Positions 35 to 7,437 of a stretch of DNA of 64,000 nt are shown here, piece after piece. Source of the stretch: an uncultured Collinsella sp. (lineage in GTDB: Bacteria > Actinomycetota > Coriobacteriia > Coriobacteriales > Coriobacteriaceae); assembly GCA_905198355.1 (NCBI GenBank), contig CAJKCG010000001.1:52347-116346 (forward strand), given 5' to 3'. The first letter of the stretch is position 1, and each line of letters starts with the position of its first letter. A program made the position numbers and the translations under genes. The notes beneath the pieces are model-generated. The model was not told the DNA's origin, ran no database searches, and saw only the letters and a list, made by a program, of their open reading frames with translations.

Positions 35-442
35 CTACCACGAGGTCGTTGCCCGAGGCTGTCTGTCGGGCACGGACGGGGGATTAATAACCGATGCGCG
101 ATCGTCCTTAAGTGCCTTGCACAGCGCGACGAACGTCTCGGGCGAGTTCCAGGCGGCGCGGCGCGAGGCGAGCGCGGACCGGACGGCCGAGACCTCGGCG
201 ACGCTGCGGGCGCGGCGCCAGTTGTTGCAGCAACGATGTGCGGCGGCGACGTTGTCACGGTCGAAGGGCGATCCGCCGCGGCTGACCGGGACGAGCTCGT
301 CGCACTCGAAAGCCCGGGGGTCGCCCGCAGGCACCCCGTAGTCTATGGGTAGCCCACATATCCAGCAGGGCCTACCCTGCGAGCGCAGCCACCGCACGAC
401 ATGGCGGCGTCGGGCGCCGTTGGCCTTGCGCGGGTTGCCCAT
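35..442 (-). CDS. HNH endonuclease (phage-type)
   Basis: 135 aa; CWICG...ECDELVP...AHRCCNNW HNH/zinc motif. Confidence 0.8.
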   Translation of the reverse strand: MGNPRKANGARRRHVVRWLRSQGRPCWICGLPIDYGVPAGDPRAFECDELVPVSRGGSPFDRDNVAAAHRCCNNWRRARSVAEVSAVRSALASRRAAWNSPETFVALCKALKDDRASVINPPSVPDRQPRATTSW

Positions 443-445
443 CCC

Positions 446-655
446 CTACCACTCCACCGGGGAGCGCCCTCGGTTGGACATACACGCCTCGATGCCCCCG
501 TAGCGCAGCGCCTCCAGGCGCACGCCCCCGGCACTCCCCGGTCGGCGGCGGGGCGCCGCCGTGACCCCCAGGGCGCGACGGAACGCCCACGCCATGACCG
601 TGTCGTGGCGGCGGGCGGATCGCGTGATGTACTCTCGGCTGACCACGGGCATCAT
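446..655 (-). CDS. hypothetical small phage protein
   Basis: 69 aa ORF abutting the HNH gene start on the same strand. Confidence 0.3.
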   Translation of the reverse strand: MMPVVSREYITRSARRHDTVMAWAFRRALGVTAAPRRRPGSAGGVRLEALRYGGIEACMSNRGRSPVEW

Positions 656-806
656 CCCCTATTGAATTAAACGGAATAGAAAGGCCGGAGTCCCTGAACT
701 GCTGAAGGGAACCCCGGCCACTCATCTGTGCTTCCACGCACATCCGACCCGCAAGCCGCGCGGGCGGCGCTGCGAATCGACACCCTAGTTATATCCCAAT
801 CGCAAT

Positions 807-906
807 GTGCAACGGTGTGCAATCGCGTGCAACTATAGGCAATCTCGTGCAATCGTAGGTAATCGCGTGCAATTGCATGCAACGGCGTGCAATCGCGTGC
901 AGCCTA
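807..906. repeat. 10 copies of GTGCAA(Y) at exact 10-bp periodicity (iteron-like protein-binding array)
   Basis: GTGCAA or a 1-nt variant starts at 807, 817, 827, 837, 847, 857, 867, 877, 887 and 897, in the intergenic region directly downstream of the late-activator gene. Confidence 0.8.
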
Positions 907-963
907 CAGATAGAGAGAAACCCGCCGGCGCGGAGCCGACGGGTCACGACAGAGATATATAAC

Positions 964-1416
964 TCAGACTGCAGCGCGGCCAAGACCCGATCGGGCGGCC
1001 GCCAGACCGACCATATCCGTCCAGTCCAGGGCGGCGCACAGGTCGGAGTTAACCGACCTCACCGACACGCCCAGAGTCCCCGCGATCTCCTGCAGCGTGC
1101 GATCCTCGCAGTATCGCAGCTCCAGCACGTCGCCCCAGCGCTTGCCCGGGTTGGCCGAGCGCACCCCTGCGCACAGCTCGCGGCCCCGCTCCACCTCATG
1201 CCGCAACTCGGACAGCTCCGCGCCGCTGCGGCGCTCGTAGTCGATCCGGTCGTCGGTGGACCTCATAAAGTCCGTCCCGTGCGCGCCCTTGCCCACGGCG
1301 TCGTAGCGCTGGGCGCGCACCTGCTCGCGCGCCTGCATCGACTCGATGACCGCCAGGCGGCGGTCGATGCCGCGCTGGGCGGCCCGTACAGTCTCCAGAT
1401 ATTCCCTTGCGTCCAT
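964..1416 (-). CDS. ArpU/RinA-like phage late transcriptional activator (sigma-70 region-4-like HTH)
   Basis: 150 aa; C-terminal LELRYCEDRTLQEIAGTLGVSVRSVNSDL resembles sigma region 4. Confidence 0.55.
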   Translation of the reverse strand: MDAREYLETVRAAQRGIDRRLAVIESMQAREQVRAQRYDAVGKGAHGTDFMRSTDDRIDYERRSGAELSELRHEVERGRELCAGVRSANPGKRWGDVLELRYCEDRTLQEIAGTLGVSVRSVNSDLCAALDWTDMVGLAAARSGLGRAAV

Positions 1417-4346: not shown

Positions 4347-4483
4347 CGCCTCGCCTGGCGCAGCTCATCGCAGATGTCGCACCCCTGTCGCAGCCTGTCG
4401 CACTCCCTGAGCGACCTCTTGGCGTCCTCGAGCCTGCCGATGGCGAGGTCGATCCAGTCGGCGGGTCCGCACACGTAGCTCAT
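4277..4483 (-). CDS. hypothetical small protein (start trimmed)
   Basis: Plausible 68-aa product MSYVCGPADWIDL... The upstream half of the ORF is Arg-rich frame noise. ATGA overlap with the next gene. Confidence 0.35.
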   Translation of the reverse strand: MSYVCGPADWIDLAIGRLEDAKRSLRECDRLRQGCDICDELRQARRCLNKALIMVAEERSIEKEWSTR

Positions 4484-4851
4484 CGCGACTCGCCCCTCAC
4501 GCCGAAGACTTCCGCGAGGATGTCGCCGGGCGCGGCCACGAACGGATCCGCGCTGATCGGGTCGTACATGACCTCCAGATAGTCGGGATAGCCATCGGTT
4601 ATGCCCACGGTCCGGACCTTCATCTCGGTCTCCTCGCCGTCGTCGGCGGAATCGTCGGGCTCGAGCGCGGGCAGGCACTGGTAGCCCCAGATCACGCTCA
4701 CCTCGTGCTCGTCCAGGATGGTCTTGGTGCGCTCGATTCGCATCCGGTGGCAGCCCACCGGCCCCGTGTCGTACGTGTCGTCGGCCCAGGGGATCTGGTG
4801 CCTGTCGAGGGCATCACGGTAGGCCCTCATCACCGCTGAGATCTCGGTCAA
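4480..4851 (-). CDS. hypothetical phage protein
   Basis: 123 aa; 4-nt overlap with neighbours. Confidence 0.45.
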   Translation of the reverse strand: MTEISAVMRAYRDALDRHQIPWADDTYDTGPVGCHRMRIERTKTILDEHEVSVIWGYQCLPALEPDDSADDGEETEMKVRTVGITDGYPDYLEVMYDPISADPFVAAPGDILAEVFGVRGESR

Positions 4852-5237
4852 AGCCTCTCTCGCTTTCTCTCTTCGGACAATATGGCATTAATTGCGGCCT
4901 CGGCCTCCTCGGCCGTGCCGCCTGTGCCGTCTAGCGGCGGAAACCCCAGCGCCTGCTGCCCTAACTCCGCCGCGCCCGTTGGCACACTATTGACACACCT
5001 GCGCTCCGGGTCCTCGCCCTCCGGCTTTTTGCCGCCCGCGATGGCGGCGACCCTCTCGTACAGGTCGGCGCGCTGCGCCTCGCGCGCCTCCGTGTCGTGG
5101 AGCTCCTGCTCCTTGGTCAGCCGGGCGGCATCCCCGTGCGACATGACGTTTGCCATGTAGATCCGCGTCAGGTCGAGCGGGCGGCCGTGGGCGGGGTCGG
5201 CCTTCTCGTTCTCGAGCATCTCCCAAAGGGTGATCAT
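4848..5237 (-). CDS. hypothetical phage protein
   Basis: 129 aa; 4-nt overlaps on both sides. Confidence 0.45.
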   Translation of the reverse strand: MITLWEMLENEKADPAHGRPLDLTRIYMANVMSHGDAARLTKEQELHDTEAREAQRADLYERVAAIAGGKKPEGEDPERRCVNSVPTGAAELGQQALGFPPLDGTGGTAEEAEAAINAILSEERKRERL

Positions 5238-5920
5238 GACGCCTCACCCAGCTCGCGCCTGAGTTCGACTATGCGCTCCGCATCAGTCTTCACGGGCTTC
5301 CACACGGACGCCCGCTCGACCTCCTGGGAGGTCTGCCCGCCCCGCGCCTTGCGGTCCGCGTCGAAGCCGACCTGCTTGCGGCTCCAGTTGCGGGCGAGCG
5401 CCCACACGTCGGTCACGGGCAGGCCGCTCGGCAGCGTCCAGCCCTGTGCTGTGTAGTGGTCGAAGAACTGACGGGGGTCGCCGCGCAGGCAGTTGGCGGC
5501 GAAGTAGGCCTCGACGTCCTCCATCGAGGGCGGGTCGAAGTCGTCGGGGGCTTGGCGGGCCGCGCTATAACCCGCAAGGGTTATCTCCTTCTCCTTCTCC
5601 TTCTCCTTCTGTTGGTTACCCTGTTGGGTAGCCCCTTGGCTACCCCCTTGGCTACCCCCTTGGCTACCCCCTTGGCAAGGCACCCGACCGGAAGACTTGG
5701 CGGCCCTTGCGCGGCCGCCCATGCTGCCGTTCACCATGGCGTCGATGCGCCCCCTTGCGAAGCTGAAGGCCGCCATGGTCGCCGGCTTCAGCTTGGGCTC
5801 GACGCCCTCGTAGCCGTAGCGCAGCATCGCCCAGGCGAGCGCCATGCCCTCCCTGTCGCCGAGCGCGCGGCAGCCCTCGTAGAAGTCGCGGTTGAAGTTG
5901 AACTTATCCATCCATGTCAC
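5234..5920 (-). CDS. phage protein with low-complexity repeat linker (possible replication organiser)
   Basis: 228 aa; central QGGSQGGSQGGSQG and KEKEKEKE are encoded by in-frame 12-bp and 6-bp tandem DNA repeats at 5570-5690. Confidence 0.45.
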   Translation of the reverse strand: MTWMDKFNFNRDFYEGCRALGDREGMALAWAMLRYGYEGVEPKLKPATMAAFSFARGRIDAMVNGSMGGRARAAKSSGRVPCQGGSQGGSQGGSQGATQQGNQQKEKEKEKEITLAGYSAARQAPDDFDPPSMEDVEAYFAANCLRGDPRQFFDHYTAQGWTLPSGLPVTDVWALARNWSRKQVGFDADRKARGGQTSQEVERASVWKPVKTDAERIVELRRELGEAS

Positions 5921-7067
5921 CTCCGTAGATCGAATCGGTGAAGGCCGCGGCGGCCTCCCTGTCGCGGCCCGGCAGCACCGAGCCGTATATCTCGAGCGTC
6001 GTCTTGACGTTCGCGTGCCCCAGGCGCTCCTGCACCAGGCGCATGTCCCACCCGTGCGTGAGCAGCCACGTGGCGTGCGTGTGCCTGAGCGTGTGGAAGA
6101 CCGTCTCCCCGGGCAGCTCGAGCTCGCGCGCGATCGCCTTGAACCGGGCCGTCACGGTCGACGGCCTCGCGAGCCCTCCCGCGGGCCCGAAGGTGATCAG
6201 GGGCGCGGCCGGCCCCTTGCGGACGAGCCACGTGTCCTGCCACGCCAGGTGGCGCTCCAGCTGCGCCTCGACCGCCGGCGGGATCGAGACGTTCCGCGAG
6301 CGCTTGCCCTTAGTGAAGGGCTGCCTGTGCAGGCTGGGCTTCTCGACGGCCTGCCCGGCTACGTGGATGTCGTGCAGTGAGCGGCGCCAGTCGCGGCGCT
6401 GCAGGCCGCAGACCTCCCCGACCCGCATGCCCGTGTGGAGCGCGAGGAAGACCGCCATGGCCTCGGTGCGCCGGGCGATGTTGGCGCCCGTGGCGTCGCG
6501 CGAGGACATGGCGGACACCATCGCGCGGGACAGCCCGTCCGCATCGAGCTCGGACAGGGCGAACGGCTCCCCGGGTTTCACCTTGGGGGCCGGGACCTCG
6601 AGCATGACGTTGTAGCCGATGACATGGCGCCACTTCCCGTACGCGACCTTGAGCAGCGAGTGCATGAGCCGCACGGTCTTGGGCGACAGCCCCTTGCCCG
6701 TCCTGGGCGCGAGCAGCGTGCGGTACGCCGCCGACACGTCCCACGGCTGCAGCTGGTCGTAGGGGATGCGCCCGATGGTCGGCTCCACCATCGTCCTGAC
6801 CGCGCTGCGGTAGGCCGCGACGGAGTTGTCGGACAGGTTGTTGACGGGGTCGGAGATATAGGTCTCGAGCATCGATGACAGGCGCTTGGAGCTGTCCTGC
6901 GCCGAGGAGGGGATATAGGTCGCGACCCATTTGTCGCACTCGGCCTGGGCCTGTTCGCGGGGCAGGTCCCCGTCCCAGGACTTATACGGCCTGATCCGCC
7001 TGCCCGTGGCGCGGTCGGTGCCCATGTAGGGGCGGGCGAACCAGCGGCCGTCCGCCCCGCGCTGCAC
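5904..7067 (-). CDS. tyrosine recombinase/integrase (Int1)
   Basis: C-terminal HTLRHTHATWLLTHG...LGHANVKTTLEIY catalytic box. N-terminal ...QRGADGRWFARPY arm-type motif. GTG start at 7067 chosen (ATG alternative at 7025). The first ~100 aa of the long ORF are frame noise. Confidence 0.8.
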   Translation of the reverse strand: MQRGADGRWFARPYMGTDRATGRRIRPYKSWDGDLPREQAQAECDKWVATYIPSSAQDSSKRLSSMLETYISDPVNNLSDNSVAAYRSAVRTMVEPTIGRIPYDQLQPWDVSAAYRTLLAPRTGKGLSPKTVRLMHSLLKVAYGKWRHVIGYNVMLEVPAPKVKPGEPFALSELDADGLSRAMVSAMSSRDATGANIARRTEAMAVFLALHTGMRVGEVCGLQRRDWRRSLHDIHVAGQAVEKPSLHRQPFTKGKRSRNVSIPPAVEAQLERHLAWQDTWLVRKGPAAPLITFGPAGGLARPSTVTARFKAIARELELPGETVFHTLRHTHATWLLTHGWDMRLVQERLGHANVKTTLEIYGSVLPGRDREAAAAFTDSIYGGDMDG

Positions 7068-7083
7068 GACCGCCCGGCGCTCG

Positions 7084-7437
7084 CTAGGAGAGATCACTGG
7101 CGGCGAGCTCCTTAGCGATACGCGCGGTCCTGTCGCGGTCGTCGAGGTCGATATCCAGGAGCAGCTCGCCCGCGTCGGACGGGCTGACCGCCGCGAGCAT
7201 GACCTGCCCCCTTGCCTCGGTCTCATCGATCCCAAGGTTAACCATGACCCTGACGGACTCGCTGACGAGGCGCCGCATGATCCCGAGAGCGGTGCGCTGA
7301 TCCATGTAGCCTCCCGCAAAGACCAAAACGCCATCATCGACATCTCCGGCGCAGACGAGGCCATTCACCTCGAACTCGACGGGCTCGACGTTCTCGCGCT
7401 CGATCGTCACCTTCACCTTCGGCTCCTCGCTACTCAT
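7084..7437 (-). CDS. small acidic protein, paralogue A (MSSEE...)
   Basis: 117 aa; shares its N-terminal MSSE(E/D)..V.VT motif with the next gene. Confidence 0.4.
   Translation of the reverse strand: MSSEEPKVKVTIERENVEPVEFEVNGLVCAGDVDDGVLVFAGGYMDQRTALGIMRRLVSESVRVMVNLGIDETEARGQVMLAAVSPSDAGELLLDIDLDDRDRTARIAKELAASDLS

What the first reader, a model, noticed from the sequence alone, without database searches (positions are those of the whole stretch)
780..1416. Ten GTGCAA boxes at exact 10-bp spacing directly downstream of an ArpU/RinA-like activator gene
The one-helical-turn periodicity places all boxes on one DNA face. This is typical of cooperative binding arrays (iterons or activator sites). 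The location, between the late-activator gene and the small gene/HNH/packaging genes presumed to lie beyond the window, suggests the late promoter control region or a replication or packaging signal.
Basis: partly seen in the sequence, partly recalled or inferred. Interest (0 to 1): 0.55.

Follow-up and report, generated by a model that had tools for sequence, protein, structure and literature searches.

The report
Phage late-promoter activator binding array
A row of ten short DNA boxes, one per turn of the helix, in a Collinsella prophage is most likely the docking site through which the neighbouring phage regulator turns on the DNA-packaging and virion genes; this is a known type of phage switch, here with unusually many sites.

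Summary
Window 807-906 holds ten 10-bp units in exact register: six GTGCAA plus ATGCAA, AGGCAA, AGGTAA and GTGCAG. On the coding (-) strand they read TTGCAC.

On that strand the order is: 150-aa sigma-70-region-4 protein, terminator hairpin, array, 13-nt spacer, TATAAC, a conserved ~130-nt leader, a 69-aa ORF, then an HNH endonuclease. In relatives, terminase and portal genes follow.

About 100 related Collinsella prophage and viral loci keep the array in strict 10-bp phase, with 6-14 copies.

Three box types (TTGCAC, TTGCAG, TTGCnn) go one-to-one with three alleles of the regulator's predicted recognition helix. They assort freely with two unrelated terminase modules. Relatives at 51-56% identity keep the layout with quite different boxes: TTCCGC, TTTCGC, CTGCAG, ATACGA, ATAGAC.

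This matches the published Ltr paradigm (RinA, ArpU, LtrA-C, phi13 Ltr, TP901-1 Alt): direct repeats between the late-activator gene and the packaging operon promoter, with specificity set by the activator's C-terminus.

It is a new member of a known kind, notable for its copy number, strict phasing and copy-number polymorphism. Nothing was tested experimentally.

The parts
964..1416 (-). Gene for the 150-aa late transcriptional activator: an N-terminal two-helix hairpin plus a C-terminal sigma-70 region 4 HTH, with the recognition helix at about residues 119-136.
   Evidence: ORF. Pfam Sigma70_r4_2 5e-7 and Sigma70_r4 2.5e-6, both above cut-off. phrog_36 6e-6. AF2 model pLDDT 89. Whole-fold matches to phage DUF1492 / 'ECF sigma' proteins, TM 0.6-0.78.
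921..943 (-). GC-rich hairpin followed by a T-rich tract (911-920). This is the likely intrinsic terminator that insulates the activator gene from the late promoter.
   Evidence: Terminator scan. Hairpins sit at the same place in all relatives, with different sequences in clades A and B. Ltr systems have a terminator here (PMC3753634).
807..906 (-). Array of ten 10-bp units. On the - strand they read CnRTTGCACR, with hexamers at 807-812 ... 897-902. Proposed binding sites for the activator, all on one face of the helix.
   Evidence: this window. (conservation, 6-14 copies, position weight matrix, co-variation with the recognition helix).
794..806 (-). 13-nt spacer between the promoter-proximal box and the -10-like hexamer. 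Its sequence varies but its length is fixed.
   Evidence: the same 13-nt distance holds in clades A, B and C, in the L278/L224, L273 and L281 lineages, and in the unrelated AT-rich contigs L028 and L073.
788..793 (-). TATAAC, a -10-like hexamer inside the invariant GGGATATAACTAGGGTG (781-797). Putative late promoter core with no -35 element.
   Evidence: Invariant in about 100 loci. TATAAA, TATACC, TATATT, TATAAT or TATAGT occupies the same place in other lineages. The consensus sigma-70 promoter scan finds nothing, which fits dependence on an activator. The transcription start was not mapped.
656..787 (-). Conserved ~130-nt untranslated leader with three predicted hairpins. The last (683-719) is followed by TTTCTATT (675-682) and looks like a terminator.
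   Evidence: Near-invariant in 63 distinct sequences. RNAalifold gives -52 kcal/mol, with stem changes mostly pair-preserving and variable loops. No Rfam match.
446..655 (-). First ORF of the late operon, 69 aa, function unknown.
   Evidence: ORF. phrog_34586 at 4e-3 here and 5e-6 for the L121 homologue.
35..442 (-). HNH endonuclease, the terminase-associated type. In relatives, terminase subunits and portal follow beyond the window edge.
   Evidence: phrog_338 1.5e-21. In the window-like relative L125: DUF4417 protein, Terminase_4 small subunit and TerL. In L121: TerL phrog_9 5e-41 and portal phrog_104 2e-87.

Best explanation
The array is the upstream activating region of the prophage's late (packaging, morphogenesis) operon promoter. 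[quoted passage not shown] The protein's sigma-region-4-type helix-turn-helix reads the 10-bp unit CnRTTGCACR.

Because the units repeat every helical turn, up to ten protomers line up on one face of the DNA. They are probably held together through the N-terminal two-helix hairpin. The promoter-proximal protomer sits 13 nt upstream of the TATAAC hexamer, where a -35 element is missing. From there the assembly recruits or stabilises host RNA polymerase.

Transcription then runs through the ~130-nt leader into the 69-aa ORF, HNH, terminase, portal and virion genes.

Shown here: the anatomy, its conservation, the fixed geometry, and the co-variation of box and recognition helix. Inferred: binding, cooperativity, contact with RNA polymerase, and the start site.
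For: 1. Anatomy is gene, terminator, array, 13 nt, TATAAC, leader, small ORF, HNH.

2. In 101 related Collinsella prophage and viral loci the array always sits in exact 10-bp register at the same distance from the invariant GGGATATAAC. Copy number is 6-14.

3. The activator alleles differ almost only from residue ~121 on, which is the predicted recognition helix. VNSDLCAAL goes with TTGCAC (39 loci), VHSDMSSAL with TTGCAG (43) and IQADLSAAL with TTGCnn (17), with no exception.

4. In clade C a hicA cassette of ~800 bp separates the gene from the array, yet the pairing holds. The array stays with the promoter.

5. Homologues at 51-56% identity keep the layout with other boxes and other helices. 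They are L225 (TTCCGC), L273 (TTTCGC/ATGCGC), L278 (CTGCAG), L281 (ATACGA) and L283 (ATAGAC).

6. Box type is independent of the packaging module: pkg1/pkg2 by A/B gives 17/23 and 22/19. The two modules have different small terminases, and their TerL proteins are only 28% identical.

7. Only one such array occurs per phage contig at the three-box stringency. Nothing comparable exists elsewhere in the window.

8. The predicted fold is a helical hairpin plus a sigma4 HTH. Its best matches are phage DUF1492 (the LtrB class) and 'sigma region 4' proteins.

9. Published experiments on the same arrangement show that Ltr proteins bind direct repeats just distal to their gene and upstream of the terS promoter. 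The repeats are necessary and sufficient for specificity, and the C-terminal region sets that specificity (PMC3753634). In phi13 Ltr the repeats lie at -107 to -42, upstream of endonuclease-terS-terL; in TP901-1 Alt they lie at -76 to -32 (PMC13123087).

10. Unrelated AT-rich contigs show TTGCAC x3-5 at 10-bp spacing, 13 nt from TATAAT or TATAGT. The arrays follow a DUF1492/Sigma70_r4 gene in L073 and a 125-aa ORF with no Pfam hit in L028.
Against: - There is no experimental evidence of binding, activation or a transcription start for this phage.
- The helix-box association rests on about 8 independent lineages, not 99, because the loci are related. The gene and array are usually adjacent, so linkage contributes to the association.
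- The protein is not basic (pI 6.2), unlike the described Ltr proteins (pI > 8).
- It has no sequence match to the RinA, ArpU or DUF1492 models.
- The TATAAC hexamer lacks the usual final T, and no -35 is present, so the promoter assignment is by position only.
- The leader's terminator-like hairpin is not explained by simple activation.
Confidence: 0.8

Rival explanations
1. The array is a packaging recognition site (cosB- or pac-like) to which the small terminase or the HNH-terminase complex binds, wrapping the phased repeats.
For: It lies just upstream of the HNH and terminase genes. Phased repeats are typical of small-terminase sites (general knowledge). The cos site of this phage was not located.
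Against: The same box types (A, B) occur with two unrelated packaging modules. Their small ORFs are ~60% identical and their HNH proteins 57-60%. One has a Terminase_4 small subunit and the other a different HTH protein, and their TerL proteins are 28% identical. All four combinations are well populated. The boxes instead track the activator's recognition helix.
Confidence: 0.04
2. The 150-aa protein is a true alternative sigma factor and the boxes are reiterated -35 elements of its promoter.
For: Sigma70_r4 and Sigma70_r4_2 hits above cut-off, and weak ECF-sigma hits. TTGCAC resembles TTGACA. Foldseek lists ECF sigmas.
Against: There is no sigma region 2: the N-terminal half is predicted as a simple two-helix hairpin. 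Full-length PDB sigma matches have rmsd 14-25 A and E > 0.5, and only the 39-67-residue region 4 superposes. The box-to-TATA spacer is 13 nt, not 16-18. One -35 element would suffice, yet 6-14 are kept.
Confidence: 0.07
3. The protein is a Q-like antiterminator. It is loaded at the array and promoter, and modifies RNA polymerase so that it reads through the terminator-like hairpin in the leader (683-719). The array is its loading site rather than a classical activator site.
For: A conserved leader hairpin followed by TTTCTATT lies ~100 nt downstream of the putative promoter. L283 has a similar GC hairpin plus T-run. There is a weak hit to phrog_79 'anti-termination protein Q-like', 5e-4, over the HTH only. 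The gene lies directly upstream of the late promoter, as lambda Q does.
Against: The leader terminator is not evident in the other lineages (L225, L273, L278). The published Ltr systems behave as activators of an otherwise silent promoter (PMC3753634). Covariation support for the hairpin is thin because the sequences are nearly identical. This reading still requires binding to the array, so it modifies the best explanation rather than replacing it.
Confidence: 0.08
4. The array is a set of iterons of a phage replication origin.
For: Directly repeated, phased short boxes are the hallmark of iterons.
Against: The array lies about 4.3 kb from the putative replication-region gene (5234-5920), at the early/late boundary. 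It has no adjacent AT-rich unwinding stretch: the array is 53% GC and the flanks 56%. It co-varies with a sigma4-type regulator, not with a replication initiator. It is fixed relative to a -10-like element.
Confidence: 0.02
5. The array is a slippage-prone tandem repeat with no function of its own.
For: Copy number varies from 6 to 14, and blocks of 2-5 units are visibly duplicated.
Against: Nine of ten positions of the unit carry information. Phase and distance to the promoter core are never broken in ~100 loci. Lineages with ~50% identical proteins have rebuilt the array with different boxes.
Confidence: 0.02

Closest known systems
Ltr super-family of late transcriptional regulators of Gram-positive siphophages (RinA, ArpU, LtrA = Sigma70_r4, LtrB = DUF1492, LtrC); Quiles-Puchalt et al. 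2013, PMC3753634; Ferrer et al. 2011, PMC3152322
   Same: A small regulator gene is the last gene of the early cluster. A terminator follows it, then direct repeats, then the promoter of the packaging operon. Specificity resides in the regulator's C-terminal part and is matched to the repeats; 80alpha and phi29 RinA differ in a few C-terminal residues and in one base of the repeat. That mirrors clades A and B here. The LtrA class carries a sigma-70 region 4 motif, and the predicted fold here matches DUF1492 (LtrB) phage proteins.
   Different: There are 6-14 repeats of 10 bp in strict helical phase, against 2-4 repeats in the tested phages. The protein is acidic to neutral (pI 6.2) rather than basic. 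No sequence-model hit to RinA, ArpU or DUF1492 was found, and the profile comparison with phage 37 LtrA is not significant. The host is a high-GC Coriobacteriia species (Collinsella). No homologue exists in 50,697 deposited phage genomes.
Staphylococcus phage phi13 Ltr and its P23 promoter (PMC13123087, 2026)
   Same: Repeats upstream of a TATA box, at -107 to -42, are required for activation. The downstream genes are endonuclease, terS, terL and portal, the same order as here.
   Different: Phi13 has three and a half 18-bp repeats rather than ten 10-bp units. Its protein belongs to a different Ltr family (Family IV).
Lactococcus phage TP901-1 Alt and the P-late promoter (Pedersen et al. 2006, cited in PMC13123087 and PMC3753634; not read here)
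   Same: The activator binds a series of imperfect direct repeats from about -76 to -32 upstream of the late start site, next to terS.
   Different: Four repeats; an unrelated protein family restricted to lactococcal phages.
Lambda Q with P_R' and t_R'
   Same: The regulator gene lies immediately upstream of the late promoter, and a short leader ends in a terminator before the late genes.
   Different: Q binds a single site within the promoter and acts by antitermination. There is no repeat array and no sigma4-type HTH. The resemblance rests only on the leader hairpin and a weak PHROG hit.

Membership tests
Ltr super-family (functional class of phage late activators) | Gene is the last of the early/middle cluster, directly upstream of the packaging (terS/terL) operon | tested here: met
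   964-1416 is followed by the small ORF and HNH in the window. In relatives small terminase, TerL and portal follow.
Ltr super-family (functional class of phage late activators) | Direct repeats between the regulator gene and the late promoter | tested here: met
   Ten units at 807-906, and 6-14 in ~100 relatives. Other boxes take the same place in homologues at 51-56% identity.
Ltr super-family (functional class of phage late activators) | C-terminal part of the protein determines specificity for the cognate repeats | tested here: inconclusive
   Recognition-helix alleles and box types match perfectly across 3 alleles plus 5 distant lineages. This is correlation only, and linkage contributes to it.
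Ltr super-family (functional class of phage late activators) | [quoted passage not shown] | tested here: met
   Predicted hairpin plus T-tract at 911-943, present in all relatives. Termination itself was not tested.
Ltr super-family (functional class of phage late activators) | Small basic protein (about 130 aa, pI > 8) | tested here: not met
   150 aa, pI 6.16, with 24 K+R against 25 D+E.
Ltr super-family (functional class of phage late activators) | Protein binds the repeats and is required and sufficient among phage proteins for late promoter activity | not testable with these tools
   Needs EMSA or footprinting and reporter assays.
LtrA (Sigma70_r4) family | Sigma-70 region 4 motif in the C-terminal half | tested here: met
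   Pfam Sigma70_r4_2 29.7 bits (cut-off 25.7) and Sigma70_r4 27.4 bits (cut-off 24.1). 13 of 22 homologues hit.
LtrA (Sigma70_r4) family | Detectable homology to the tested member, phage 37 YP_240149 | tested here: not met
   hhalign of A1 against phage 37 LtrA gives probability 5.6% over 31 HTH columns only.
LtrB (DUF1492, PF07374) family | Match to the DUF1492 model | tested here: not met
   No DUF1492 hit for the protein or any of 22 homologues at E <= 1. Indirect links exist: Foldseek whole-fold matches to DUF1492 phage proteins, TM 0.56-0.67, and hhalign probability 87% to the DUF1492 protein of L073 over the C-terminal 56 columns.
   NCBIfam returns only sigma-70/ECF models below cut-off and no ArpU or RinA model. 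The best PHROG hit is the generic phrog_36 'transcriptional regulator'.
ECF / group 4 sigma factors | Region 2 (core binding, -10 melting) plus region 4 | tested here: not met
   TIGR02937 scores 22.8 bits against a cut-off of 42.9 and covers region 4 only. The AF2 N-terminal half is a two-helix hairpin. Full-length sigma structures do not superpose.
Terminase recognition site (cosB/pac) | Sequence co-evolves with the cognate small terminase | tested here: not met
   Box classes A and B each occur with both unrelated packaging modules.

The most novel reading that the evidence does not exclude
The activator does not act as a few independent dimers. It polymerises on 6-14 helically phased sites into a one-faced nucleoprotein filament spanning about -130 to -26. 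The array length is polymorphic between otherwise near-identical prophages, and it would set the threshold and timing of late gene expression. RNA polymerase launched from this assembly would become resistant to the terminator in the conserved leader, which would be a combined activator and antiterminator switch not described for Ltr-type regulators.
Probability: 0.12. Interest if true: 0.6.

Novelty: new member of a known kind. Interest (0 to 1): 0.36.

Why it matters
It extends the Ltr type of late-gene switch, so far tested in Staphylococcus, Enterococcus, Streptococcus and Lactococcus phages, to prophages that are common in the human gut actinobacterium Collinsella aerofaciens.

The natural series gives a ready-made set of candidate orthogonal regulator/promoter pairs. 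It comprises three near-isogenic helix/box pairs that differ in one or two box positions, plus five divergent pairs. The series is also a small data set on how a sigma-region-4 helix reads DNA.

The copy-number polymorphism (6-14) offers a simple way to test whether the number of sites tunes the timing or strength of the late promoter.

For annotation, the 10-bp phased array followed at 13 nt by TATAnn is a usable signature of the early/late boundary in such prophages.

Tried and rejected
- DNA similarity to deposited phages found only a 92-bp integrase match in Gordonia phage Catfish. tblastn of the activator against 50,697 phage records found nothing.
- Rfam on 400-1100 found no family.
- NCBIfam and Pfam gave no RinA, ArpU or DUF1492 hit.
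- Foldseek against PDB matched only the sigma4 domain.
- I tried to locate cos from the ends of metagenomic contigs. The ends within reach fall at scattered positions (table), so they say nothing about cos.
- The 2014 paper on HNH-cos phages (PMC4000808) is not held. PMC5052747 did not state where cos lies relative to hnh.
- I first read L278 and L281 as a clean module swap. They share only ~500 bp (core promoter, leader, start of HNH; 92% identity) and diverge further downstream. That pair therefore does not exclude the terminase. The pkg1/pkg2 by box-class table does.
- The intergenic region of phage 37 (LtrA) shows no obvious 10-bp array by eye, so strict 10-bp phasing is not a general Ltr property.
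- The sigma-70 promoter scan found no canonical promoter in 400-1600.

Full report
**Observation**

Window 807-906 contains ten 10-bp units in perfect register. The hexamers start at 807, 817... 897. They read GTGCAA (six times), ATGCAA, AGGCAA, AGGTAA and GTGCAG. TRF reports the array with periods 10 and 20.

GTGCAA is not over-represented in the window as a whole (27 copies against 33.7 expected), yet six copies lie within 86 bp. An in-phase run of G[CT]A[AG] reaches 10. An in-phase run of GCAA reaches 5, against at most 3 in 200 simulated windows. The stretch has the highest lag-10 self-identity of the whole 64 kb.

**Anatomy**

All genes of this end of the window read on the - strand, so the boxes read TTGCAC. 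On that strand the order is as follows.

- An integrase (7364-5904) and early genes.
- The 150-aa protein (1416-964).
- A GC hairpin with a T-tract (943-911).
- The array (906-807).
- A 13-nt spacer.
- TATAAC (793-788), inside an invariant GGGATATAACTAGGGTG.
- A ~130-nt leader.
- A 69-aa ORF (655-446).
- An HNH endonuclease (442-35; phrog_338, 1.5e-21).

No canonical sigma-70 promoter is present. The host is Collinsella aerofaciens.

**The protein**

Pfam finds sigma-70 region 4 above the gathering score. NCBIfam finds only sub-threshold ECF-sigma matches confined to region 4. PHROGs gives a generic 'transcriptional regulator'.

AlphaFold2 on a 22-sequence alignment (pLDDT 89) predicts a long two-helix hairpin (3-41, 49-88) followed by a three-helix HTH, with the recognition helix at 119-136. 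Foldseek against viral models returns phage DUF1492 and 'ECF sigma / sigma-70 region 4' proteins over the whole length (TM 0.6-0.78). PDB structures match only the region 4 domain.

So it is not a complete sigma factor. It is not an ArpU or RinA member by sequence, and it is not basic (pI 6.2).

**Close relatives**

Two scans gave 49 viral contigs and 54 genome contigs, nearly all Collinsella, with 89-99% identical proteins. In every locus where the core could be found (101, including the window), the array sits in exact 10-bp register. It ends 13 nt before TATAAC and has 6-14 copies, with a median of 9-11.

The 10-bp unit is informative at nine of ten positions. It reads CnRTTGCACR in class A, CnRTTGCAGA in class B and YnATTGCnnR in class C.

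The protein alleles are almost identical up to residue ~120 and differ from there on, which is the recognition helix and the tail. VNSDLCAAL pairs with TTGCAC (39 loci), VHSDMSSAL with TTGCAG (43) and IQADLSAAL with TTGCnn (17), without exception.

In class C a cassette separates the gene from the array, and the pairing persists. The cassette encodes a HicA toxin (Pfam 6e-10) and an HTH_17 protein. These loci are related and the gene and array are usually adjacent, so the count overstates the number of independent events.

**Distant relatives**

An alignment-based scan brought in homologues at 41-56% identity. Five lineages keep the order terminator, phased array, ~13 nt, TATAnn, GGTGGCG leader, HNH. 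Their boxes and recognition helices differ from those above.

| Lineage | Box | Copies |
|---|---|---|
| L225 | TTCCGC | 7 |
| L273-275 | TTTCGC / ATGCGC | 7 |
| L278-280, L224, L276 | CTGCAG | 7 |
| L281 | ATACGA | 4-5 |
| L283 | ATAGAC | 6 |

L224, L276 and L277 again carry an insert between the gene and the array that begins with a HicA-like ORF, read by eye only. No comparable array was found downstream of the homologues in L282 (51%) and L284 (41%) with the pattern I used. Together with the three alleles above, this gives about eight independent pairings of helix and box.

**Against a packaging signal**

Downstream of the conserved leader there are two unrelated late-operon heads.

| Feature | pkg1 (L121-like) | pkg2 (window-like) |
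|---|---|---|
| Small terminase | HTH-type candidate | Terminase_4 |
| Extra gene | none noted | DUF4417 protein |
| TerL | phrog_9 | 28% identical to pkg1 TerL |
| Small ORF, HNH | reference | ~60% identical to pkg1 |
| Loci with box class A | 17 | 22 |
| Loci with box class B | 23 | 19 |

A terminase recognition site would be expected to follow the terminase. This array follows the regulator.

Only one array per phage contig was found at the three-box stringency. Nothing similar occurs elsewhere in the window.

**Comparison with the literature**

Quiles-Puchalt et al. (PMC3753634) defined the Ltr super-family: RinA, ArpU, LtrA with a sigma-70 region 4 motif, LtrB = DUF1492, and LtrC. Their main findings were these.

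- A terminator follows the gene.
- Direct repeats just distal to the gene (two to four) are necessary and sufficient for specific activation of the terS promoter.
- The C-terminal region sets specificity. 80alpha and phi29 RinA differ in a few C-terminal residues and in one base of the repeat.

Phi13 Ltr needs three and a half 18-bp repeats at -107 to -42, upstream of endonuclease-terS-terL. TP901-1 Alt binds four repeats at -76 to -32 (PMC13123087). The locus studied here has the same logic and the same gene order.

It differs in four ways: repeat number and period (6-14 units of 10 bp), strict helical phasing with a fixed 13-nt distance to the -10-like hexamer, protein charge, and host phylum. 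I therefore file it as a new member of a known kind.

**Mechanism**

The best-supported reading (confidence about 0.8) is cooperative, one-faced binding of the sigma4-type activator to the array. RNA polymerase would then be recruited to a -35-less promoter whose -10-like element lies 13 nt from the proximal box.

That spacing is too short for the box to act as a normal -35 element of a holoenzyme. The protein also lacks region 2, and together these argue against a true sigma factor.

The conserved leader folds into three hairpins, the last with a T-run. Whether it attenuates basal transcription, or is read through in an activator-dependent, Q-like way, is open. The weak phrog_79 hit is no more than a hint.

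**Wider pattern**

The first pattern scan also returned many unrelated, AT-rich viral contigs with 3-6 GTGCAA boxes at 10-bp spacing.

- In L073 the array directly follows a DUF1492/Sigma70_r4 gene. It ends 13 nt before TATAGT, and an HNH-like gene follows.
- In L028 it follows a 125-aa ORF with no Pfam hit but an HTH-like C-terminus. It ends 13 nt before TATAAT.
- In L048 it follows a gene that the family HMM detects.

The phased TTGCAC array therefore looks like a recurrent solution among sigma4/DUF1492-type late regulators. The Collinsella phages show it in an expanded form.

**Limits**

Nothing here shows binding, activation or the transcription start. The cos site was not located. Covariation in the leader is weak because the sequences are so similar.

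Noticed in passing
window 656-787 (- strand); hairpin 683-719 with T-run 675-682: The ~130-nt leader between the putative late promoter and the first late ORF is almost invariant across ~100 loci. It is predicted to form three hairpins, the last looking like an intrinsic terminator. No Rfam family matches. It might be an attenuator, a target of antitermination, or might contain cos.
   Followed up: partly
L163:6532-7206 (also L164-166, L168, L209-221); L224, L276, L277 at about 4540-5250: A two-gene cassette is inserted between the activator gene and the terminator-array unit. In L163 it encodes a HicA toxin (Pfam 6e-10) and a 150-aa HTH_17 protein. Inserts beginning with a HicA-like ORF (read by eye only, not scanned) sit at the equivalent site in a second lineage whose activators are only ~55% identical. 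This suggests a moron insertion hot spot at the early/late boundary.
   Followed up: partly
L121:6750-9300 versus L125:6650-10400 (window-like): Two unrelated late-operon heads follow the same promoter and leader. One has HNH, an HTH-type small-terminase candidate and TerL. The other has HNH, a DUF4417 protein, another ORF, a Terminase_4 small subunit and a TerL only 28% identical to the first. The mosaic junction lies right after the leader's T-run.
   Followed up: partly
L028:3071-3530; L073:9268-9800; L048:10718-11300; L010 around 8038: Unrelated, mostly AT-rich viral contigs carry TTGCAC x3-5 at 10-bp spacing. The arrays follow a DUF1492/Sigma70_r4 gene in L073, a 125-aa ORF with no Pfam hit in L028, and a gene detected by the family HMM in L048. 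In L028 and L073 the array ends 13 nt upstream of TATAAT or TATAGT. HNH-like genes follow in L073 and L048. The L010 contig also holds a homologue, though not directly upstream of its array, and a possible small-terminase gene follows (not verified).
   Followed up: partly
L001, L023, L024, L026, L030, L054, L063, L067, L082, L091, L097, L099, L102, L117, L118 (viral contigs, mostly sample 3300045988): One near-identical 40-bp array, GTGCAAAAATGTGCAAGAATGTGCAAGAATGTGCAGGATT, recurs in at least 15 large viral contigs. In L001 no adjacent ORF was found within the held stretch. Its context was not examined.
   Followed up: no
window 4353-4409: TRF reports a weak period-10 repeat (GCCTGTCGCA, about 5 copies, 66% matches) and a period-21 repeat inside coding sequence of the early region. 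It is probably unrelated to the array.
   Followed up: no
window 5584-5676: Perfect TCTCCT x4.5 and a 12-nt repeat x5.4 lie inside the DUF6291 gene (5234-5920, - strand). They encode a (QGGS)n / (KE)n low-complexity linker.
   Followed up: no
window 5904-7364 and beyond: A tyrosine integrase on the same strand as the phage genes marks the prophage end near 7400. Only ~7.4 kb of the prophage lies in the window, and the rest (7.5-64 kb) appears to be host chromosome, with tRNA-Lys and tRNA-His at 14.6-14.8 kb and tRNA-Ala at 31.9 kb. The attachment site was not sought.
   Followed up: no
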